From Octopus sinensis (lineage: Eukaryota), in assembly GCF_006345805.1 (NCBI RefSeq), contig NC_043004.1:87172001-87236000 (forward strand): a stretch of DNA of 64,000 bases, read 5' to 3'. Below the pieces are notes generated by a model. It did no database searches. It was not told the DNA's origin and saw nothing but the letters and a program-made list of their open reading frames with translations. Shown here in pieces: positions 3,709 to 53,763 of the stretch. Numbering within the stretch: the stretch's first letter is position 1; every line of letters starts with the position of its first letter. A program made the translations under genes and the position numbers.

Positions 3709-4870
3709 AGAGACAGGGATGCAGAAAAAGTAGTAAAATGTGATAAATGGTGTAGACTTCGTAGTGTTAACACCGAAGATATCACCCACATCATAAGCAG
3801 TTGGCCAAAAATGTTGTCACGGTATTATCTACTGATGAGACATGATGTTGTAGCTAGGATGCTGTATAAGGAGATCCATAAGAAGGATAAGCCTGAGACC
3901 AAAGAAATAAGATCCTACAATATGGTAGAAGCTATAGCCACTCATAATAAAAAGGAGTACTGGTGAAATGTCCCAGTGAAAACCTCAATAAAATATGAAC
4001 ATAATAGACCTGACATAGTAATTTGGGATAGAGAAGAAAAACTGTATACAGTGGTGGAAATCAGTTGCCCAGTAGATGTTAGCATAAAGCTAAAGATCAG
4101 TGAAAAAGAAAATACCTATGCTGATCTATTGAGGAATCTACAGCTACTTTATCCAGATTACAAGTTCAGGTTTATACCTGTAATTATTGGGGCACTGGGA
4201 TATGTAACATACTGCCTAAATACCAATCTTGAGAAATTAGGATTCTCAAAACCAGAAAGGAGAAAGCTGATTCAAAGACTAGAGATCCAAACTATCATTG
4301 AAAATGTAAAAATCTGTAAAACTTTCCAGAACTTTATCTTTTAAGTATATATGAGCATGTCTAGATCGTGTGCAGACAGGATGCCGAATGCACCTTTGCC
4401 AAATGACTAGAAGCCAAAGCCAAGAAGCCGAACAGACACAATGCTGGACACAATAATAGAAAAATAAACATTCTTACCTACATAGTTTTATGACCAATTC
4501 ACCAATTTAGCACTTTAAGCATTTTAATTTTCGTATGTCTTTTTGGTACCTTGTCCATTTGGCTTTATGTCTGTTCGGCATTGTGTCTGTTCAGCTTCTT
4601 GTCCTTCAGCAAAAGTCCATTTGGCATCCCAACTGTGTACCATCTAGACTTGCAACTATATGCATAAGAATACATACATAAAATGATACACTCAAATCTG
4701 CACATATACATACATACATACATACATACATACATACATACATACAAACAAACAAAAATACCCTGTTGATGTTCTTGAAATTCCAATGAAGTAGCCTTGG
4801 ATCTAGGTTAGAAACTGGCTCTTTCTCTATTGGCAAGAAATCTTGAAATAAAATTGAATAATGACATACA
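3709..4870 (+). mobile_element. 5'-truncated non-LTR retrotransposon with restriction-like endonuclease (R2/R4/NeSL/HERO group), copy 1
   Basis: ORFs 3676-3966 and 3976-4344 are in one frame separated by a stop: decayed CCHC knuckle CRLRSVNTEDITHIISSW, RHDVVARML motif, PD-(D/E)xK nuclease RPDIVIWD...VVEISCP...KISEKENTY and PVIIGALG. Confidence 0.9.
4366..4642. mobile_element. MITE (~277 bp) inserted in the RLE LINE 3'UTR, copy 1
   Basis: Flanked by TCTAGA at 4360-4365 and 4643-4648; imperfect TIRs (GGATGCCGAATGCACCTTTGC vs GCAAAAGTCCATTTGGCATCC); ~15-bp subterminal repeats GCCGAACAGACACAA in inverted orientation at the two ends. Confidence 0.75.
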
Positions 4871-5273
4871 AAATAAATACACACATGCATGCATGGCTTC
4901 TTTCAGTCTCTGTTTACCAAATCCACTCACAAGGTTTTGTTTGGCTAGGGCTACAATAGAAGATACTTGTCCAAGGCACCATGATTGTGAATTAAACTTA
5001 TTGACACTCCAATTTCAAACTTTAAAGTCTTTATTGTAATTGGCCTGACCATGTCCATATGAATTTGTCATCTATTAGAAAATATATCTCATCATCATCA
5101 TTTAATGTCTATCTTCCATACTGTAAGGGTTTGGAAGGTTTGATAAGATCCAACAAACTGTCAAGCTCTAATGTTGGTTTTGACATGGTTTCTGTGGTTG
5201 GATGCTTTTCCTCACCAACTACCTAACAGTGTACTGAGTGCCTTTTTTCAGGCTAATATATATATATATATAT

Positions 5274-5304
<31 letters not shown>

Positions 5305-5609
5305 TTATGTATCATCATCCTTTTAATGTCTACTTTTCCATGCTAAAATGGATCAGATGGAATTCATTGAAACAGATTTTCTGCAGTGAGATGTCCTTCC
5401 TGCCACCAACCCTCATCTGTTTCCAAGTAACACTTTCTCATGGCCAGGTGTTTTTGCAGAATATTGGAAATGAATGACACTGCTTGTATGGCAGAGACAT
5501 TCATTTACACCTATCAAGTGATGTCAAGATAAGAAGACACACACACACAAGCATACATACAGATACATAAATACATATGTATGTACCTATGTACATACAT
5601 ACATACATA

Positions 5610-6896
5610 AGAGACAGGGATGCAGAAAAAGTAGTAAAATGTGATAAATGGTGTAGACTTCGTAGTGTTAACACCGAAGATATCACCCACATCATAAGCA
5701 GTTGGCCAAAAATGTTGTCACGGTATTATCTACTGATGAGACATGATGTTGTAGCTAGGATGCTGTATAAGGAGATCCATAAGAAGGATAAGCCTGAGAC
5801 CAAAGAAATAAGATCCTACAATATGGTAGAAGCTATAGCCACTCATAATAAAAAGGAGTACTGGTGAAATGTCCCAGTGAAAACCTCAATAAAATATGAA
5901 CATAATAGACCTGACATAGTAATTTGGGATAGAGAAGAAAAACTGTATACAGTGGTGGAAATCAGTTGCCCAGTAGATGTTAGCATAAAGCTAAAGATCA
6001 GTGAAAAAGAAAATACCTATGCTGATCTATTGAGGAATCTACAGCTACTTTATCCAGATTACAAGTTCAGGTTTATACCTGTAATTATTGGGGCACTGGG
6101 ATATGTAACATACTGCCTAAATACCAATCTTGAGAAATTAGGATTCTCAAAACCAGAAAGGAGAAAGCTGATTCAAAGACTAGAGATCCAAACTATCATT
6201 GAAAATGTAAAAATCTGTAAAACTTTCCAGAACTTTATCTTTTAAGTATATATGAGCATGTCTAGATCGTGTGCAGACAGGATGCCGAATGCACCTTTGC
6301 CAAATGACTAGAAGCCAAAGCCAAGAAGCCGAACAGACACAATGCTGGACACAATAATAGAAAAATAAACATTCTTACCTACATAGTTTTATGACCAATT
6401 CACCAATTAGCACTTTAAGCATTTTAATTTTCGTATGTCTTTTTGGTACCTTGTCCATTTGGCTTTATGTCTGTTCGGCATTGTGTCTGTTCAGCTTCTT
6501 GTCCTTCAGCAAAAGTCCATTTGGCATCCCAACTGTGTACCATCTAGACTTGCACTATATGCATAAGAATACATACATAAAATGATACACTCAAATCTGC
6601 ACATATACATACATACATACATACATACATCATACATACATACATACATACATACATACATACATACATACATACATACATACATACATCATACATACAT
6701 ACAACATACATACATACAACATACATACATACATACAACATACATACATACATCATACATACATACATACAAACAAACAAAAAATACCCTGTTGATGTTC
6801 TTGAAATTCCAATGAAGTAGCCTTGGATCTAGGTTAGAAACTGGCTCTTTCTCTATTGGCAAGAAATCTTGAAATAAAATTGAATAATGACATACA
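5610..6896 (+). mobile_element. 5'-truncated RLE-type non-LTR retrotransposon, copy 2 (product of the tandem duplication)
   Basis: ORFs 5577-5867 and 5877-6245 are identical to copy 1, including the same premature stop. Confidence 0.9.
6267..6542. mobile_element. MITE, copy 2
   Basis: Duplicate of 4366-4642, flanked by TCTAGA on both sides. Confidence 0.75.
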
Positions 6897-7277
6897 AAAT
6901 AAATACACACATGCATGCATGGCTTCTTTCAGTCTCTGTTTACCAAATCCACTCACAAGGTTTTGTTTGGCTAGGGCTACAATAGAAGATACTTGTCCAA
7001 GGCACCATGATTGTGAATTAAACTTATTGACACTCCAATTTCAACTTTAAAGTCTTTATTGTAATTGGCCTGACCATGTCCATATGAATTTGTCATCTAT
7101 TAGAAAATATATCTCATCATCATCATTTAATGTCTATCTTCCATACTGTAAGGGTTTGGAAGGTTTGATAAGATCCAACAAACTGTCAAGCTCTAATGTT
7201 GGTTTTGACATGGTTTCTGTGGTTGGATGCTTTTCCTCACCAACTACCTAACAGTGTACTGAGTGCCTTTTTTCAGG

Positions 7278-7322
<45 letters not shown>

Positions 7323-7468
7323 AGCCACTACACACATTTTTTTTCTCTCCTTGTTTTTTTCTGTGTCCCTTTCTGTAGAAGAGCGTAGGCTCAAAACATA
7401 AAAGACTTTTTCAATTCCTGAGCATTATACTAATACATCTGTTTGTTTTGTACACCACCTGTCTTCAT

Positions 7469-7509
<41 letters not shown>

Positions 7510-7864
7510 AGATAGGGGTTGAAAATTCAACCCACCATGGGATAATATATATCCAATATACTGCTAGATAGGTACCCAACAAAATTAATACATAGATGTT
7601 AAAAATTGTCAAACAATCAGTTCATCTATTGCATTATATGGGTAAAGGTAATAATATTACCGTAAATTAATACTACAAAATTAGAGAATGGAGAAATATA
7701 CTTAAATCAGTAAACCATCAACTATCCGATGATACTCAATCCATACTTTAATACACCATTACATATGAGTAAAGGCAATACACAAAATGAAATGAGATAT
7801 ACAGTAATAGTAAAAAGATAAAGAGATATAAGTAAAAAATTTTCAAATATAATATGCAAATAAA

Positions 7865-7985
7865 TCAAAACTGACAGCTGTTTCGGCAGTGAGGACAGTC
7901 ATACCTCATTTAACCTATAAGCCATAAAGGCAGGTATAAATGAGGCATTAACAAGGATGCCCCACGGCCTCTTCAGAGAATTAAA
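7865..7985 (-). ncRNA. Type I hammerhead ribozyme motif (Penelope-type, long stem II), left-arm copy
   Basis: Reverse complement reads CTGAAGA (7976-7970) GGC...GCC GAAA CAGCTG TC (7884-7873); mirror of the 9140-9242 motif. Confidence 0.7.
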
Positions 7986-8326
7986 TTAAATTTGTTATAA
8001 TAGTGAAAAAATTATACAATCATATACATATAAATATAAAAATATAAAAATGTAAAATATAAAAACTTATACATCATAAAGCTACACTTATATAATATAA
8101 TACACATTTGTACAAAAAAGGAAGGTAAACAGAACAAAATAAAACAAAATATATAATAGTGTATATATTAATATCAATAAGTACCGATATTATACATATT
8201 TGGCTAATAGTTTTTTTTTAAATATATATAAAAAAAAGGCTAACATATATGGAGATGAAAAATAATAATTAAATCCGTGGTACAGTTCATAAGATTCTAA
8301 AGCTATAAAAGTTAATAAAAATTACT

Positions 8327-8377
<51 letters not shown>

Positions 8378-8735
8378 TATAATTGTGCCTCAGAGGCACA
8401 ATTATAATTTTGAAGGACTAAATTGTAGCATAGTTGCTTCCCTTTTTGTTTATCTATGTGCTAGTTGTTGCTTGTAATTATGTATGTGTATAAGTGTATG
8501 CATATACATATTACTATGTGTGTATGTGCGATTGATCTGTAGATGGTGTGTGAATATTGGCGTTCCCTGACTAACCAACCGTATAATTTTCTTTTGTGAT
8601 TTAATTTCAAACCAATAGCCATCGAATTAATCTATATTTTCTTTACCTAGTGGTCAGCATTTCTTAACTCATAGTTATTTCGATCTTATAAGGATGGACT
8701 TGGTGCTAACTTAACTGTATCTATTTTTTATTATA

Positions 8736-8785
<50 letters not shown>

Positions 8786-9129
8786 TATTAATAGTAATTT
8801 TTATTAACTTTTATAGCTTTAGAATCTTATGAACTGTACCACGGATTTAATTATTATTTTTCATCTCCATATATGTTAGCCTTTTTTTTATATATATTTA
8901 AAAAAAAACTATTAGCCAAATATGTATAATATCGGTACTTATTGATATTAATATATACACTATTATATATTTTGTTTATTTTGTTCTGTTTACCTTCCTT
9001 TTTGTACAAATGTGTATTATATTATATAAGTATAGCTTTATGATGTATAAGTTTTTATATTTTACATTTTTATATTTTATATTTATATGTATATGATTGT
9101 ATAATATTTTTCACTATTATAACAAATTT

Positions 9130-9250
9130 AATTTATTCTCTGAAGAGGCCGTGGGGCATCCTTGTTATGCCTCATTTATACCTGCCTTTATGGCTTATAG
9201 GTTAAATGAGGTATGACTGTCCTCACTGCCGAAACAGCTGTCAGTTTTGA
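9130..9250 (+). ncRNA. Type I hammerhead ribozyme motif (Penelope-type, long stem II), right-arm copy
   Basis: CTGAAGA 9140-9146, G10.1:C11.1 pair (9147:9230), stem II GGC-c-GTGGGG / CCTCAC-t-GCC, GAAA 9231-9234, palindromic stem III ACAGCTGT, GUC triplet ending at 9242. Stem I is weak (2 bp, then U-U mismatches). Confidence 0.72.
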
Positions 9251-10004
9251 TTTATTTGCATATTATATTTGAAAATTTTTACTTATATCTCTTTATCTTT
9301 TTACTATTACTGTATATCTCATTTCATTTTGTGTATTGCCTTTACTCATATGTAATGGTGTATTAAAGTATGGATTGAGTATCATCGGATAGTTGATGTT
9401 TTACTGATTTAAGTATATTTCTCCATTCTCTAATTTGTAATATATATATATATATATAATATATATATATATAATATAGGGAGAGTTCACAAAAAAAAAA
9501 CAAAAAACAAAGACAGGTGGTGTAGACAACAACAGATGTATTAGTATAACGCTCAGGAATTGAAAAAGTCTTTTATGTTTTGAGCCTACGCTCTTCTACA
9601 GAAAGGGGCATATATATATATATATATAAGATATATAAGAAATAATTAAGATTCAGTTGAATTGGGTACTTAAGTTGAAGCACCAAGTCTGTCCAATATC
9701 ATCTGTACAGCTCTAAATCATTGTAGACTTTAGATATTTTCCCCTAAATTCATTCTGATACAATAATAGCAAAAAGACTCAATGTATTCTAAATCCCTAA
9801 TAATGATGAAAGATTTGCTAAAAAATTATAATGGAGTATCCTGTATGTTGGAAATCTATATGGTCATATGCTTCCGAGGAGAGCAGTTTATTTCAAATTG
9901 ATGTAATGTGTGCATTGATCTATTAAATGGAGCCACTTGAAATGGCTGTAATGCACTAATTACCTTGACATTCCTGTTACTTATTTGCTTGTGTGTGTGT
10001 ATAG

Positions 10005-14016: not shown

Positions 14017-14430
14017 TATGTATGTATGTATATATATATATATATATATATGTATGTTATGTATGTTTGTATATATATATATATATATATGTATGTTATG
14101 TATGTATGTATATATATATATAATATATATATATATGTATGTATGTATGTATGTATATATAATATATATATGTATGTTATGTATGTATGTATATATATAT
14201 ATATATAATATATATATGTATGTTATGTATATATATATGTATGTTATGTATATATATAGTGTTTTGCTCAAGAACACAACACGCAGCCCGGTCCGGGAGT
14301 TGAGCTCAAAACCTGACGATCGTAAGCTCGACGCTCTAACCACTGAGCCATGCGCTTTCACATTTATATATGTATGTTATGTATATATATATATATATAT
14401 TATATGTATGTTATTTTATATTATGTTATG

Positions 14431-14465
<35 letters not shown>

Positions 14466-14525
14466 GTATGTATATATATATATATATATATAATATATAT
14501 ATATATATATGTGTATGTTATGTAT
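13734..14525. repeat. Compound (TA)n/(TATG)n microsatellite with higher-order unit ATGTATGTTATGT; contains a duplicated SINE head
   Basis: Directly visible; resumes after the RTE LINE at 17776-18150. Confidence 0.95.
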
Positions 14526-17500
14526 GTCAACAAGCCACCTGGTCACCTACCGATCAGGCCGGCATACAGCCAAATCGACTACATCCTTGCCAGAAAAAGG
14601 GAAAGATGGCTGCTTATAAATGCCAAAACCTTCCCAGCGAAGAATGCACCCCACAACATAGGCTGGTAGTTAGTGACTTTAGGATCAGGACTAAGAGGGC
14701 GACTAGAAGACGACCAACATGGAGAAGAAGGGCCTGGAAGCTTAAAGCCCCTGCGAATGGACAGAGATTTAGAGATATGTTACTTGAAGCCTTTGACGAA
14801 GTGGAAGGGGGTATAGCTACACATGGGGTAGAAGACAACTGGACGTTTCTGAGGGACAACCTGCTGAAAGCCGCTGACCAGATCTGTGGCTGGTGCAAAG
14901 TCCCCTTAAGACCAAAATACCTTGATGGTGGAACAATATTGTTGACAGGGCTATTAGACAAAAGAAACAGGCTTGGAAGGCCTGGAAGAACGGTGGTAGC
15001 AGGGAAGGGTATCAGACTGCCAGAGGGAAGCTAGGAGACAGGTCTATCTAGCCAGAGGGAAGCAGATAAGAGAAATTTGCCAATGTCCTGCGCCGTGAGG
15101 ATGAAGACTTGAGGTATTTCGTGTTGCAAGACAGTGTGTGAGAGAGAATCGTGATGTGGTAGGAGAGAAATGTGTTCGCATGGAGGATGGTTCACTTGCG
15201 CTAAATGAGGATGCAAAGAGAGAAGCTTGGAGACGCCACTATGAAAGGTTACTGAATGAGGAAAATGAATGGGATAAAGAGAGTCTGCCGAATGTTGACC
15301 CTACAGAGGGACCAGCTATCCGAGTTGATAGTTCCGTAGTAGCTAAGGCAATTAGAAGCATGAAGACAGGGAAAGCCCCAGCCCATCAGGAATTACTGCA
15401 GAGATGCTCAAAATATCTGGCATGTCGGCTATAACCTAGTCACCCGTATAGTCAACCAGGTGATACACGAAGGAGTCATACCCATGACTGGTGCAGCAGC
15501 ATACTAGTCAACTGCTACAAAGGTAAAGGTGATGCCCTAGATACAAATAATTACAGAGGTATCAAGCTGTTGGATCAAGTAATGAAGGTTACGGAGAGGG
15601 TCATAGCCCAACTAATTAGAGAGAGAGTTAGTTTAGATGAGATGCAGTTTGGGTTCGTGCCAGGGAAAAGTACCACTGATGCTATATTCCTGGTAAGGCA
15701 GCTGCAGGAGAAATACCTAGCCAAAGATAAGCCCCTGTACCTGGCTTTCGTTGACATGGAGAAAGCTTTTGATAGGGTCCCCCGATCCCTATCTGGTGGT
15801 CAATGAGGAAACTAGGGATAGATAATGGCTGGTGAGGACTGTGCAAGCCATGTACAGAGATGCCGTAAGTAAGGTTAGGGTTGGCAACATGTACACAGAA
15901 TTCAAAGTAGAGGTTGGGGTCCCACCAGGTTCAGTACTCAGCCCCCCCCTATTTATCATAGTACTCCAGGCAATTACGGAGGAATTCAAGACAGGCTGTC
16001 CCTGGGAGCTCCTCTACGCTGACGACCTTGCTCTTATTGCTGAGTCACTATCAGAACTGGAGGAGAAGTTCCAGGTGTGGAAGGAGGGTTTAGAATCAAG
16101 GGGCCTTAGAGTCACCTAGCTAAAACCAAAGTACTAATAAGTAGAAAGGTAGACAATCCACAAATATCTTCAGGAAGATGGCCCTGCTCGATCTGTAGAA
16201 AAGGTGTAGGTAGAAACTCTATAAGATGTACCCAGTCTAAGCTATGGCACATAAGAGGTGCAGCAATGTCAAAGGTAGGCTAACTGGAAGATAGTTTTTG
16301 TATGTGCAGATGCTCGGGAGCATTAACCTCCGAAAATCTGCAGAAAACAACTTCCGTCACTTTCCAGGGGAAACTAGAAGTAGTTGATAGCTTCCGTTAT
16401 CTAGGTGACCAAGTCAGTAGTGGGGGTGGGTGCGCTGAAAGTGTAACTGCTAGAATAAGAATAGCCTGGGCAAAGTTTAGGGAGCTCTTACCTCTGCTGG
16501 TGACTAAAGGCCTCTCGCTCAGAGTAAAAGGCAGACTGTATGATGCGTGTGTACGAACAGCCATGCTACATGGCAGCGAACATGGGCCGTGACTGCTGAG
16601 GACATGCGTAAGCTCGTGAGGAATGAAGCCAGTATGCTCCGATGGATGTGTAATGTCAGTGTACATACTCGACAGAGCGTTAGCACCTTGAGAGAAATGT
16701 TGTACCTAAGAAGCATCAGTTGTGGTGTGCAGAGAGACGATTGCGCTGGTATGGTCATGTGGCGAGAATGGATGAAGATAGGTGTGTGAGAAAGTGCCAA
16801 TCTCTAGCAGTTGAGGGAACCCGTGGAAGAGGTAGACCCAGGAAAACCTGGACGAGGTGGTGAAGCACGACCTTCGAACTTTAGCCTCACTGAGGAAATG
16901 ACCAGAGACCGAGACCTTTGGAAATATTCTGTACGTGAGAAGACCAGGCAGGACAAGTGAGCCCAGCCCACTTATGAATGCTTTCCTCCCTTGGACACAA
17001 AGACCGGTTGAGGCAAGCGAAGTCGATATAGAACCTCATCCACGACAGACACCCATGCCACCCCCCATGCTTGCGAAGACATGTTAGGGCAAGCGAAATC
17101 GAAATCGAAACCGAATTGAACCAGCCAGGATCCCTGGCCTGGTGGTACGTAAAAAGCACTATCCGACTCGTGGCCGTGGCACGTAAAATACTCCAATGCG
17201 ACCGTACGACAGGCACCCATGCCAACCCCCTTTGCTTGTGAAGACATGTTGGGGCAAGCGAAATCGAAATCGAAACCGAATTGAACCAGCCAGGATCCCT
17301 GGTCTGGTGGTACGTAAAAAGCACTATCCGACTCGTGGCCGTGGCACGAAAATACTCCAATGCGACCGTACGACAGGCACCCATGCCAACCCCCTTTGCT
17401 TGTGAAGACATGTTGGGGCAAGCGAATCGAAATCGAATTGAACCAGCCAGGATCCTGGTCTGGTGGTACGTAAAAAGCACTATCCGACTCGTGGCCGATG

Positions 17501-18442: not shown

Positions 18443-19741
18443 TCATCATCATCGTTTAATGTCCGCTTTCCATGCTGGCATGGGTTGGACAGTTTGACTA
18501 AGGACTGCACCAGGCTCCAATCTGATCTGGCAGAGTTTCTATAACTGGATGCCTTTCCTAACGCCAACCAACTCCAAGAGTGTAGTGGGTGCTTTTACGT
18601 GCCAGTAAGGTGACACTGGTAACGATTACACTCAAATGGTGCTTTTTAAGTGCCACTGGCACAGGAGCCAGTCAGCAGCCCTGGCAATGATCACGCTCTA
18701 GATGGTGTTTTTAACATTCCACTGGCACAGGTGCCTGTTAGGCGGTGCTGTCATCAACCATATTAGCGATTTTGATTGTGATTTTACTTGCCTCAACAGG
18801 TCTTCACAAGCAACGCATAAGTAAGCTGGTTACACTGCTGGCATAGGCCATGAGTTATGGTCTCACTTGGCTTGCCAGGTCTTCTCAAGCACAGCATATT
18901 TCCAATGGTCTCGGTCACTAGTCATTGCATTGGTGAAGCCCAATGTTCGAAGGTCGTGCTTCACCACCTCATCCCAGGTCTTCCTGAGTATACCTCTTCC
19001 ACAGATTCTATCAACTGCTAGGGTGTGACACTTTTTCACACAGCTATCCTCATCCATTTGCACCATATGTCCATACCAGCACAGTCATCTCTCTTGCACA
19101 CCACATCTGATGTTTCTTACGTCCAACTTTTCTTTCAAGGCACTTACACTCTATCTTGTATGCACACTGACATTACACATCCAGCGGAGCATACTGGCTT
19201 CATTCCTCGCAAGCTTACACATGTCCTCAGTAATCACGGCCCATGTTTCGCTGCCATGTAGCATGACTGTTCGTACACATGCATCATACAGTCTACCCTT
19301 TACTCTGAGCAAGAGGCCCTTTGTCACCAGCAGAGGTAGGAGCTCTCTGAACTTTGCCCAGGCTATTCTTATTCTAGCAGCTACACTTTCAGAGCATCCA
19401 CCCCCGCTACTGACTTGGTCACCTAGGTAACAGAAGTTGTCAACTACTTCTAGTTTTTCTCCCTGGAATGTGACAGAAATTGTTCTCTGCACATTTCCAG
19501 TGTTTATTGCTCCTGAGCATCTGCCACATACAAAAACTATCTTCCCAGTTAGCCTTTCTTTGATATTGCTGCACCTCTTATGTGTCCATAGCTTACACTG
19601 GGTACGTCTTATAGAGTTTCTACCTATGCCTTTTCTACAGATCGAGCAGGGCCATCTACCTGAAGGGATTTGTGGTTTGTCTGCCTTCCTACTTATTAAG
19701 GCACTGGTTTTAGCTAGGTTGACTCTAAGGCCCTTCGATTC
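18443..19741 (-). mobile_element. Second 5'-truncated RTE LINE (related subfamily), inverted relative to the first
   Basis: ORF 19151-19804: ESKGLRVNLAKT...CSICRKGIGRNSI...WTHKRCS...CGRC...FCYLGD...MLHGSETW; (ATC)n tail at 18443; truncated at a (TG)n tract. Confidence 0.95.
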
Positions 19742-20211
19742 TGTGTGTGTGTGTGTGTGTGTGTGTGTATTTAATTTTGGTTGAATCAGTCTCTGTGAGT
19801 GCACAGGGATACAGGCAAGTTGCCCTCACAACCATAGCTCAGCGTAGCAAGAGACTGACTGAACCAAAATGAAATATATTATTACATCCTACATTATTGT
19901 TTCATGTACTCTAACTGAAAGGTTTTTAAGGCCTTTCAATTTTATCACTAACTTGCAACCCTAAATTCAGAGACAGTTCTAATATTTCAACAGAGCTTAT
20001 AAATTGAAAAGAGGAGTAAAGTTGGGAAATTTACTGAAGACATCAGTTTCAGTAAACAAATGTATAGCATAACAGTTTTATCGGCAACATGTAGAATAAT
20101 TGAACTGTGGTAGTCATTGTTCCATTAAAATTATACAATGTCATATTCATTTTTATTTCATGATTATTAGTAATTATAACAGACATCTACATTTATAACC
20201 TGGTCACTCAC

Positions 20212-51228: not shown

Positions 51229-52984
51229 TGTATATAAAACAAATATATGTATTTGTGGTACCTGATGACAAACAAATTAAACTGCTGAACTGACACTTAT
51301 TGAGCATCCACAGTTGGAGCAGTAATTCAGACAAGTGAAAACCTGTGTCTTCTGCAGGGCCAGCATGACTTCTTCTTTTCTTTGTTCTGGATGTTTCAGG
51401 ATCCAATCTGCCTGTTGTCTGTATGTTACTATCTTAGTAATATATGTGTTAAAGGATATATGTACACATATGCACATATATATATATGCAGATATAAATA
51501 CACACACAGACACACATATTAGATTAGTTTCCTCATCTTAGTTATTATAGTCACAAAGTTTTGGCTGATGTGCCCTTCCAGCCTTTCTTCAAGTGCTTGT
51601 TGCATACAGTAACATTAAGAGAATTTCAGACTAAGCCCTTTACTCAGACTTTTTATGCTATCAGTTAATGTAAAAAATAAACACATCTCTTTCAGAACTT
51701 TCTTTTAATAAAACTGTACCGGCATTGCTCAATACTGCAATGAACTATTCATATTAATTACTTGTCATTTTTAAAATAAATTTTGTTGAATTTTTAAAAA
51801 ATTTTCTATCTGTCAAGGAAATTTTTGCCAGAGAAATTGTTAACACCTGTTCCATAATTTAGTACAAATTCAAACTGTTATTTAGAACCGTCTGAGTTAT
51901 CCTTTTGAATTGGTTTATTATAAACTAGCTTATCTGGACTGTATCTTACTGCACATGTCAAGCAAAATTATTTCTCAACTAGACACTGCAATACACCAAT
52001 ATCTGATAAAAAGATTATTCTGCAGCCTTAGAATTATTTTGACAATATATATATATAACTAATGATCAAGGTTAAGGGTGTAACATTCAAACTTTTCACT
52101 AAATATAGTAAATCTTCCTCTTATCTGAATGAAAAGCTCTTAACTTTTCTGTGTAGGTCACTGATCATTATTTATTCTCAACATTAAACCTATTTGTCCT
52201 CCTGCTTGGCTGTCAGAATCCAACTTTGAGAATATTCATGTGAAGGAGTATTATTTTTCAATTCTTTCAATTTTTCTTTTCAATTTAGTTCAGAACACTG
52301 AACATATCATTATATTCTGAACAAGGTTTAGACCTCATTAGGTATCTCAAGCCAAAAATATAGAATAAGGATTTTTTTAAAGTTTTTTTTTTTTTTCAAA
52401 ATGTAATAGAATGGCTAGATATCTTTAGAATCTTTAGAATGAGCTCTGTTTTAGTTTGGTAACTAAAAGCTTCATAAAACAGTTAATTTTTCCCATCTAT
52501 TTTAGTAATCGTGATAGCCAATGGAAGATATTTTCTGAATGGTCAATAAATTGATATGGCAACAGTAATAAAGAATATTAGCATGATTGTATACTCTCTC
52601 TTAAGTGCATCCGATTATCATTGTTATTATAACTATAGTCACCATGACTATTATTATTAGAACCACCACAAGGAACAATGAATGGTAGACTAAATGCCTT
52701 GAATTGTTTAATTACATTTTTTTTTTTTCATTCTATGTTTTAAAATCTTCTTTTCAGCTTCTAGGATTTATAAAGTAATTATCTGTAATGTACCAGTAAT
52801 TATAGAATGTTTTGTCAACTATAACCCTATCTACAAATTGGTGACCTTGTGCCAAAGTTATAAAAGCATATTATACTTACCACTAACAAATTTAATTGTT
52901 GTGATGGCCAGTTGTTGACATTAATTTTACCAAAATCTAAGTTGTACAAATTTCATTAATTATCAATTACCACTTTCCTTGCAG

Positions 52985-53209
52985 ATGGCATCAGCAAATG
53001 ACTCCAAGTGGCAAAAAGATGCAGCAGACCAGAACTTTGACTACATGTTCAAATTGCTCATTATTGGCAACAGTAGTGTTGGAAAAACTTCCTTTTTATT
53101 CCGATATGCTGATGACTCGTTCACATCTGCTTTTGTAAGCACAGTTGGAATAGATTTTAAAGTCAAGACAGTCTTCAGACAAGATAAACGGGTAAAGCTA
53201 CAGATATGG
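52985..53209 (+). CDS. Rab3: Ras-related protein Rab-3, first coding exon (aa 1-75); remaining exons lie beyond the window
   Basis: [75 protein letters not shown]: Rab3-diagnostic P-loop GNSSVGKT and switch [10 protein letters not shown]. Acceptor CACTTTCCTTGCAG directly before ATG; phase-0 donor TGG|GTGAGT. Confidence 0.98.
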
Positions 53210-53763
53210 GTGAGTATGATTTAATCAACTTTTATTCTTCTCTTTATGCTTTTTTTTTAACTCAAAACAGAAGTTAATTCCTTTTTGGAAGGGATATTGT
53301 CTTTAGAATTTCAAATATCTTAATTATTCCTTTCTTTTTGTCATTAAAAATACTGTGATTGGTGATTAAAGTTTGCTTTATTTTATTTATTTTATTATTA
53401 AACTCACTGTATTTACTTGTGTAGAAATCACACTGTTTTATACTTGGTCTTAGCTGAAAAATCTGGAGTATGACTTATACATGGGGCAAAGCTGATATCA
53501 AGTTTGAGTATGAGAGGGGAAAAATTTTGTATCATGACAAATGCAACTTATATGCAAGGTACAATGATAAATATAAGTTCAAACATTGCTTATTAGTTCT
53601 TAATTTATTCTTTTTAAAAATGATGGGTTTCATTTTTATTTCAATTTGTGAAAATCCATCCATGAAGTTTGACTTTTTTTCTTACTTTTTATATTGTCTA
53701 AAACTTGTTAAATTTACTTGAAAAAACATTAAAGCTCCTACAGAACATTTTCAAATTATACTT

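What the first reader, a model, noticed from the sequence alone, without database searches (positions are those of the whole stretch)
7366..9608. 2.2-kb nested palindrome with two complete hammerhead cores pointing outward
Seen: ~700-bp near-identical inner arms plus ~100-bp outer arms; each inner arm holds CTGAAGA...GAAACAGCTGTC. Known: Penelope-like elements (PLEs) and non-autonomous retrozymes carry type I hammerheads with a palindromic stem III that can act as dimers, and PLEs often form inverted terminal arrangements. Inference: a young, ORF-less PLE-derived fold-back unit. A transcript from either strand would carry one sense hammerhead in its 3' arm and its antisense in the 5' arm, so self-cleavage would compete with formation of a ~700-bp dsRNA (ADAR/Dicer substrate).
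Basis: partly seen in the sequence, partly recalled or inferred. Interest (0 to 1): 0.8.

Follow-up and report, generated by a model that had tools for sequence, protein, structure and literature searches.

The report
Head-to-head Hydra retrotransposon, long-armed hammerheads
The palindrome is two truncated tail-ends of a common jumping gene (a Penelope-like retrotransposon) joined head to head, which is ordinary for this class, but its predicted self-cutting RNA has an unusually long arm and its two ends almost always differ by one fixed 173-base extension, a likely footprint of how these elements insert.

Summary
The inner palindrome is real: 709 aligned columns, 3 mismatches, 9 gaps. Each arm holds an intact hammerhead core pointing outward. 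It is not a stand-alone ORF-less unit. Both arms are 5'-truncated 3' ends of a young, ORF-bearing Penelope-like family whose 947-aa protein shows every Hydra-clade motif I could test. Head-to-head inverted copies are a published hallmark of Penelope-like elements.

The ~100-bp outer arms are two copies of a different repeat (at least 18,411 motif matches). They likely flanked the (TA)n target already.

Three things depart from described members:
- Helix II of the hammerhead spans 85 nt (10-24 nt in 26 published Hydra rows). It has compensatory changes and is missed by Rfam.
- The one-sided 'tail' is 173 nt rather than 30-40.
- The unit is 5.6 kb with a 2.6-kb 3' UTR.

In 35 of 36 inverted insertions, one end is long and the other short; none is long+long or short+short. 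A second family follows this in 8 of 9 pairs.

Cleavage, transcription and read support for this locus are untested. Verdict: ordinary locus, modestly novel family variant.

The parts
7281..7318 (.). (TA)n tract before the left outer repeat
7319..7470 (+). Copy of a separate high-copy short repeat with a variant minimal hammerhead-like motif (CTGTNGA core); here decayed and about 30 nt short at its 3' end; left 'outer arm'
7471..7504 (.). (TA)n target tract at the long end of the insertion
7500..8382 (-). Left 5'-truncated PLE copy, unit positions 4669-5558, long 3' end (outer edge blurred by the TA tract)
   Evidence: mapping to natural copy L034
7500..7669 (-). One-sided tail (173 nt in the reference copy), absent from the right arm
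7873..7976 (-). Hammerhead motif, 85-nt helix II region, palindromic helix III; predicted cleavage after 7873
8375..8409 (.). Perfect junction hairpin: first 18 nt of the right copy repeated in reverse, then a jump into the (ATT)n tract of the left copy
8393..9443 (+). Right 5'-truncated PLE copy, unit positions 4331-5389, short 3' end; its first ~350 nt form the unpaired spacer and are ordinary 3' UTR
9140..9242 (+). Hammerhead motif (84-nt helix II region in this arm); predicted cleavage after 9242
9440..9478 (.). (TA)n target tract at the short end
9479..9610 (-). Second copy of the separate short repeat, 5'-truncated, tail-to-tail with the left copy; right 'outer arm'

Best explanation
Window 7500-9443 is two 5'-truncated 3' ends of a Hydra-clade Penelope-like retrotransposon joined head to head between (TA)n tracts, likely made in one insertion event by the family's own reverse transcriptase and endonuclease. 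Shown: both arms map to the 3' UTR end of a 5.6-kb unit with a 947-aa ORF; one arm stops at unit position 5389 and the other at 5562; the outer arms are another repeat. Inferred: the GIY-YIG endonuclease cuts both strands of a (TA)n tract. Each DNA end then primes reverse transcription at one of two fixed internal sites 173 nt apart, on RNA from the same source. The two prematurely ended cDNAs are joined through short microhomology or a small fold-back. The template was uncut or rejoined at the hammerhead site, because both arms run across it and both start sites lie downstream of it. The hammerhead is predicted to be off as a monomer and to need a partner RNA (8-bp palindromic helix III) or the element's protein. 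It likely serves the transposon's RNA processing, not this locus.
For: Family: 1,191 candidates, best 40 at 98-100%; 1,066 exact core-to-core pattern matches against 1 control, including a sister family. Full element in L034. Motifs RWR, DKT, YRDD, CxCx5C, C-terminal VVY..YIG without the CCHH pair, CxxC and CxH match the Hydra definition (PMC8557442 section 11). The AlphaFold model's four best PDB matches are telomerase RTs. Ends: 35 of 36 distinct inverted insertions are long+short, 1 long+other, none long+long or short+short (p about 6e-11 against a 50:50 null). A second family shows 8 of 9. The tail sits on the more truncated arm in 14, the less truncated in 20, equal in 2 (counted). Both arms share a minority variant in 12 of 19 young insertions; substitutions within insertions 0.39%, between 0.91%. 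Hammerhead: 1 deviating cell of 702 in the two core zones against 16% in the flanks; 3 pairs with two-sided change, 96.5% of cells paired. Literature: inverted 5'-truncated copies and a one-sided tail (PMC8557442); tail equals the distance between two RT start sites, both strands are cut, and HHR cutting is not needed (PMC11167929); junction palindromes (PMC3846280).
Against: Pfam gave 0 families for the 947-aa protein and the PDB sequence search gave no meaningful hit, so domain calls rest on motifs, homologues and the fold search. No phylogeny with published Hydra proteins was built. Covariation is thin: pairs with two-sided change did not beat the shuffle (219 of 500), and the rows are related. 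One pair in the second family is short+short. Several full-length copies show no inverted partner in the stretch fetched (e.g. L133, L134, L135), so the head-to-head form is not obligatory. Shared arm variants could also come from later gene conversion. No read, expression or cleavage data.
Confidence: 0.88

Rival explanations
1. Same element, different route to the palindrome. A single cDNA or an antisense template self-primes and folds back to make the second arm, as proposed for rotifer Penelope elements. This rivals only the two-priming step of the best explanation.
For: Perfect 35-bp junction hairpin here; equal 5' start points in L095 and L139 and short templated inserts in a few junctions; arms share private variants; model argued in PMC3846280.
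Against: Most junctions join two different unit positions by 1-10 nt of overlap. Simple fold-back from a tailed first strand predicts that the tailed arm always reaches further 5', yet it is the more truncated arm in 14 of 36, this locus included.
Confidence: 0.3
2. The whole 2.2 kb, outer arms included, is one non-autonomous fold-back or retrozyme-like unit that moves as a palindrome.
For: Outer arms are 95-96% alike and share a decayed motif variant. They flank the insertion symmetrically.
Against: Outer sequence is absent beside the element in 8 of 8 other loci. The inner element is absent beside 29 of 29 other outer-repeat copies. Outer arms differ by 3 substitutions in 98 nt against 3 in 700 for the inner arms (Fisher p=0.027), and 6 of 29 unrelated copies are as close. 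21 tail-to-tail pairs of the outer repeat occur at a spacing too short to hold the element. Retrozymes are tandem direct repeats (10.64898/2026.07.22.740005).
Confidence: 0.04
3. The palindrome is a fold-back read chimera or assembly artefact.
For: Near-identical arms; the gaps are mostly single-base slips in homopolymer runs. No read-level check was obtained.
Against: Flanks on the two sides are not mirrored beyond the repeats. The spacer is genuine unpaired 3' UTR. The arms end at the family's two fixed, different termini, as in 35 of 36 insertions. The architecture is published for PLEs.
Confidence: 0.04
4. The host uses this copy as a regulated dsRNA or self-cleavage switch in a read-through transcript, for example of the downstream Rab3-like gene.
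For: A read-through RNA would form a ~700-bp duplex. A Ras-family first exon lies about 43 kb downstream on the + strand.
Against: The copy is young and maps at 96.6-97.6% to another copy, mostly by gaps. More than a thousand such motifs exist. Nothing marks this copy as special.
Confidence: 0.03

Closest known systems
Hydra clade of endonuclease-bearing Penelope-like elements (PMC8557442), including Hydra-1_Obim and Penelope-13_HM
   Same: Single ORF with RT and C-terminal GIY-YIG; RW[K/R], DKT, CxCx5C, no CCHH; (TA)n targets; 3' type I hammerhead with palindromic helix III; inverted 5'-truncated copy (noted for Penelope-13_HM).
   Different: Unit about 5.57 kb with 2.6-kb 3' UTR (described members generally under 3 kb). 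Helix II region 85 nt against 10-24 nt in 26 listed Hydra rows. 947 aa against about 700 in most homologues, through two Asn-rich inserts. The listed Hydra-1_Obim hammerhead and protein differ from this family.
Poseidon element PAc of the green anole (PMC11167929)
   Same: Two fixed 3' ends whose spacing is the tail; AT-rich targets; hammerhead retained uncut in insertions.
   Different: There the start sites lie inside the ORF and the general tail is 30-40 bp. Here the ends lie about 137 and 310 nt upstream of the next unit's ATG and the tail is 173 nt.
Penelope elements of Adineta vaga (PMC3846280)
   Same: Head-to-head inverted repeats, junction palindromes, one-sided tail, Asn-rich inserts in the ORF.
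   Different: Penelope/Poseidon group, very low copy number, 31-bp tail.
Metazoan minimal PLE hammerheads and non-LTR retrozymes (PMC4209133; 10.64898/2026.07.22.740005)
   Same: Type I topology, G10.1-C11.1 pair, palindromic helix III, short helix I as in D. virilis; opposite-strand pairs 100-700 bp apart already noted in Schistosoma.
   Different: Helix II there is 6-8 bp; here about 31 bp in three stacked segments. Retrozymes are tandem and non-coding; this family encodes its own protein.

Membership tests
EN+ Penelope-like element | Single ORF with telomerase-like RT | tested here: met
   960-codon frame (947 aa from ATG) in L034 and L130, YRDD at 376; top four fold matches are TERTs. Pfam gave no hit for this protein.
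EN+ Penelope-like element | C-terminal GIY-YIG endonuclease | tested here: met
   VVY...YIG at 828-845 with downstream R, E and N conserved across alignment A1; by motif only, no profile hit.
EN+ Penelope-like element | Pseudo-LTR partial tandems, inverted 5'-truncated copy, one-sided tail | tested here: met
   L034, L129, L130, L133 tandems; 36 inverted insertions; tail at one end.
Hydra clade | RWK motif and DKT in place of DKG | tested here: met
   RWR at 37 (R for K, as in several homologues), DKT at 138.
Hydra clade | CxCx5C linker; no CCHH in EN; CxxC and CxH around conserved E and N | tested here: met
   CNCRNKNKC at 809, CSLC at 907, CIH at 935; a single Cys between the two EN motifs.
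Hydra clade | Insertion into (TA)n | tested here: met
   TA-repeat flanks at nearly all free 3' ends listed.
Hydra clade | Canonical 3' hammerhead and short (<3 kb) element, described as typical rather than defining | tested here: inconclusive
   Core and position fit, but helix II is 85 nt and the unit is 5.6 kb.
Hydra clade | Phylogenetic placement with published Hydra proteins | not tested
   Published sequences were seen only as cut passages in the supplement; no tree was built.
Type I hammerhead ribozyme | Conserved core CUGANGA / GAA / A15.1-U16.1 / H17 with three helices | tested here: met
   helix I has only 2 bp at the junction; 135 of 136 aligned copies (overlapping loci not removed) keep the core.
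Type I hammerhead ribozyme | Self-cleavage at C17 | not testable with these tools
   Needs a cleavage assay or RNA ends.
Non-LTR retrozyme | Tandem direct non-coding units, each with a hammerhead | tested here: not met
   Copies here are inverted and belong to a coding 5.6-kb unit.

The most novel reading that the evidence does not exclude
This genome holds thousands of long-helix-II hammerheads (55-100 nt; 3,704 plus 1,066 exact pattern matches) that standard searches miss, and they organise a two-RNA integration complex. The palindromic helix III would pair two element RNAs, and the long helix II would be a platform for the protein dimer. One RNA would be primed at the short site and the other at the long site, giving the strict one-long-one-short rule. 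The ribozyme fold would then act as an RNA dimerisation and priming device rather than mainly as a cutter.
Probability: 0.15. Interest if true: 0.7.

Novelty: new variant of a known kind. Interest (0 to 1): 0.38.

Why it matters
How Penelope-like elements make their inverted ends and tails, and what their hammerheads are for, is still open in the papers read. This family is young, has intact ORFs, two sharply defined ends 173 nt apart and hundreds of insertions. It therefore gives a clean genomic test: ends are not chosen independently. It also shows that hammerhead searches with short helix II limits undercount these motifs. The locus itself is one ordinary copy among many.

Tried and rejected
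Rfam at gathering threshold on the whole window (0 hits) and at E<=10 on 7200-9800 (27 hits, none a hammerhead, mostly on the TA repeats).
Pfam on the ORF (0) and PDB by sequence (1 hit at E 0.22).
Sequencing runs: 24 listed, 20 hold part of the stretch, no RNA holder listed on record. Since the sequence is a repeat, this says nothing about this locus. No read or contig overlay was obtained, so the artefact question lacks a direct test.
Pile-up of 5' truncation points at the predicted cleavage site: 0 of 72 junction ends within 10 nt of unit position 5187 (counted); weak, because most loci were found through the hammerhead or ORF.
A common short end for the outer repeat: only 12 matches genome-wide, so the left copy's truncation is not a standard terminus.
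Similarity between the tails of the two families: nothing significant.
Three 10-11-nt motifs searched in the PMC8557442 supplement: 0 hits; line breaks could hide matches.
Earlier scan notes: nothing in 3 look-ups.
(bacterial promoter scan of 21 bases) was uninformative.
Paper searches showed no description of long-helix-II Hydra hammerheads or a ~170-nt tail. The library lacks most subscription papers, and Repbase/Dfam were not searchable. The same supplement does list two non-canonical spike-moss PLE-X hammerheads with about 50-nt helix II regions, so long helix II is not without precedent.

Full report
Observation. The inner arms are 7670-8377 and 8743-9443: 709 columns with 697 matches, 3 mismatches and 9 gaps. 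The outer arms, about 7364-7465 and 9510-9610, are 95-96% alike. Each inner arm carries CTGAAGA...GAAACAGCTGTC, on + from 9140 to 9242 and on - from 7976 to 7873. Rfam recognises neither. The left arm runs about 170 nt further than the right, and a perfect hairpin sits at 8375-8409.

The inner arms belong to a coding retrotransposon. A search of the genome with the hammerhead region gave 1,191 candidates; the 40 scored are 98-100% identical and many lie in inverted pairs. Of eight pairs fetched whole, L034 holds an inverted truncated copy, a partial tandem and a 960-codon open frame followed by a 2.6-kb 3' UTR. Using that natural copy as ruler, the ATG is at 130, the stop at 2973, the hammerhead core at 5083, the predicted cut after 5186 and the end at 5562; the tandem period is about 5,570. 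The window's right arm is unit 4331-5389 and the left arm 4669-5558, plus an 18-nt reversed copy of 4330-4347 at the junction. The 'spacer' is therefore plain 3' UTR. Two of ten loci checked keep the full frame. Copies with 80-100% identity over an ORF segment show several subfamilies.

Clade. The protein has 92 homologues at E<=1e-10 among 7,988 scored candidates, most about 700 aa. I aligned 24 of the 92. The alignment shows RW[R/K], DKT, YRDD, CxCx5C, a C-terminal GIY-YIG without the CCHH cysteine pair, CxxC and CxH. These are the Hydra-clade features in PMC8557442 (section 11). The extra length comes from two Asn-rich stretches (20-26% Asn in four of five 50-residue bins between 501 and 750), modelled with low confidence. 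Such inserts are known from rotifer Penelope elements (PMC3846280). The model's four best PDB matches are telomerase RTs. Against this, Pfam and PDB sequence searches gave nothing useful and no tree was built. The paper's supplement lists Hydra-1_Obim, 2,507 bp, with a different hammerhead and protein.

Two fixed ends. Free 3' ends fall at unit 5389 or about 5562, almost always followed by (TA)n (63 short, 91 long, 10 other over overlapping loci; the long class includes internal tandem junctions). After removing duplicate loci by hand, 36 insertions show both outer ends in inverted arrangement: 35 are long+short, 1 long+other, none long+long or short+short (p about 6e-11 for 35 of 35 under a 50:50 null). 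Eight of the 36 were found with the tail as query, which guarantees one long end but not a short partner. Loci with only one end in view were not counted, and some full copies have no inverted partner in the stretch fetched. The tail lies on the more truncated arm in 14, the less truncated in 20, equal in 2. Most junctions overlap by 1-10 nt; a few carry short inserts or hairpins. In 19 young insertions, arms differ at 0.39% of sites against 0.91% between insertions, and 12 share a minority variant in both arms, this locus included. A second family, 40-50% identical in protein, has ends about 60 and 220 nt past its hammerhead; 8 of 9 pairs are long+short and 1 is short+short. A one-sided 30-40-bp tail is known (PMC8557442), and in the anole element it equals the distance between two RT start sites (PMC11167929). 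The length here and the near-strict pairing were not found in the papers searched.

The hammerhead. Between CUGAAGA and GAAA lie 85 nt folding into a long rod (z -5.3 and -4.0 for the two arms; -2.9 for the antisense strand). In 26 distinct copies spanning subfamilies, the two core zones show 1 deviating cell in 702, helix II 6% and the flanks 16%. Of 910 cells, 96.5% pair; 3 pairs change on both sides (13 cells, 0 of 500 shuffles as high), though the count of such pairs does not beat the shuffle (219 of 500) and rows are related. Helix III is the palindrome ACAGCTGT (-11.1 kcal/mol as a duplex), helix I has 2 bp at the junction, and the active monomer is 5.2 kcal/mol above a fold that traps the core. 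This fits the dimer-dependent, weakly active PLE hammerheads of PMC4209133. The 26 Hydra rows in the supplement have 10-24 nt in this position; two spike-moss PLE-X rows have about 50. Exact patterns find 1,066 motifs with a 70-100-nt spacer (control 1) and 3,704 with a 45-75-nt spacer and another palindrome (control 1), many in outward pairs. Both arms here cross the predicted cut site intact and both 3' ends lie 203 and 376 nt downstream of it, so the template was uncut or rejoined. Cleavage itself is untested.

The outer arms are a different repeat. One 21-nt pattern matches 18,411 places (control 0). The repeat is absent beside the element in 8 of 8 loci, and the element is absent beside 29 of 29 other copies. 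The two window copies differ by 3 substitutions and a gap in 98 nt, against a mean of 4.4 substitutions to other top copies; 6 of 29 are as close. Tail-to-tail pairs at 220-250 nt spacing occur 21 times, against 4 head-to-head pairs at 250-280 nt. The likely history is two such copies sharing a (TA)n tract, later split by the Hydra insertion.

Mechanism and rivals. Best reading (0.88 for identity and origin): one retrotransposition event gave two truncated cDNAs joined head to head. For the step that makes the second arm, I favour two priming events at different fixed sites (about 0.55) over self-priming fold-back (about 0.3; PMC3846280). An artefact is unlikely (0.04) but was not excluded by reads. 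A read-through RNA would pair all 103 hammerhead bases with the opposite arm, but no call shows transcription.

Papers seen: PMC8557442, passages, sections 3 and 11, supplement part 2 of 59 and term searches; PMC11167929, parts 1-2 of 4; PMC4209133, parts 1-2 of 4; PMC3846280, parts 1-4 of 5; 10.64898/2026.07.22.740005, part 1 of 5; PMC13282606 and PMC3088659, passages only; other titles as search listings only. Supplements other than that of PMC8557442 were not read and may list longer tails or helices. Hammerhead position numbering and the name Rab3 are from recall.

Verdict. Real, explained, and ordinary as an architecture. The family is a new variant of a known kind, with a long-helix hammerhead, a long tail and a countable end rule. 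Interest 0.38.

Noticed in passing
window 7319-7470 and 9479-9610; L040-L068, L163-L172: The outer repeat carries a minimal hammerhead-like motif CTGT-N-GA A GAGC-GTAG-GCTC GAAACGT. Position 7 varies freely (A, T, G, C) while position 6 is U instead of A. At least 18,411 matches, variable 5' ends and a fixed 3' end on (TA)n: likely a PLE-derived non-coding family. No parent ORF was looked for.
   Followed up: partly
L143-L162, L173-L177: A second, more abundant Hydra-like family (40-50% protein identity) with a 55-nt helix II hammerhead, palindrome ACACGTGT and a ~155-160-nt one-sided tail.
   Followed up: partly
L178-L184: Sister family of the window's element with a 99-100-nt helix II region, the same ACAGCTGT palindrome and A at the cleavage position; no ORF match in the stretches fetched.
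   Followed up: partly
L137:1037 and 1471, L185, L186: Three further long-helix hammerhead families (64, 56 and 73 nt). L137:8412-10001 holds another Hydra-type ORF, 37% identical; several PLE families nest in the same TA-rich sites.
   Followed up: no
window 52925-53221 (+): First coding exon of a Ras-family GTPase (Pfam Ras, E 4.6e-15); the sequence looks like Rab3 (name recalled). About 43 kb downstream of the insertion.
   Followed up: no
window 5018-5273 and 7043-7298; 3967-4344 and 5868-6245: Exact local duplications about 2 kb apart, including an identical 125-codon frame resembling the C-terminal endonuclease region of a non-LTR element (resemblance recalled, no Pfam hit); recent tandem duplication or assembly duplicate just left of the finding.
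   Followed up: no
window 14400-16600 and 19154-19825: Broken LINE-type reverse transcriptase fragments (RVT_1 at 15435-15803 and 15826-16116).
   Followed up: no
L034, L129, L130, L132, L133, L134: Upstream partial tandems of very different lengths (about 110 nt to over 2 kb) all end at the long terminus and run straight into the next unit.
   Followed up: partly
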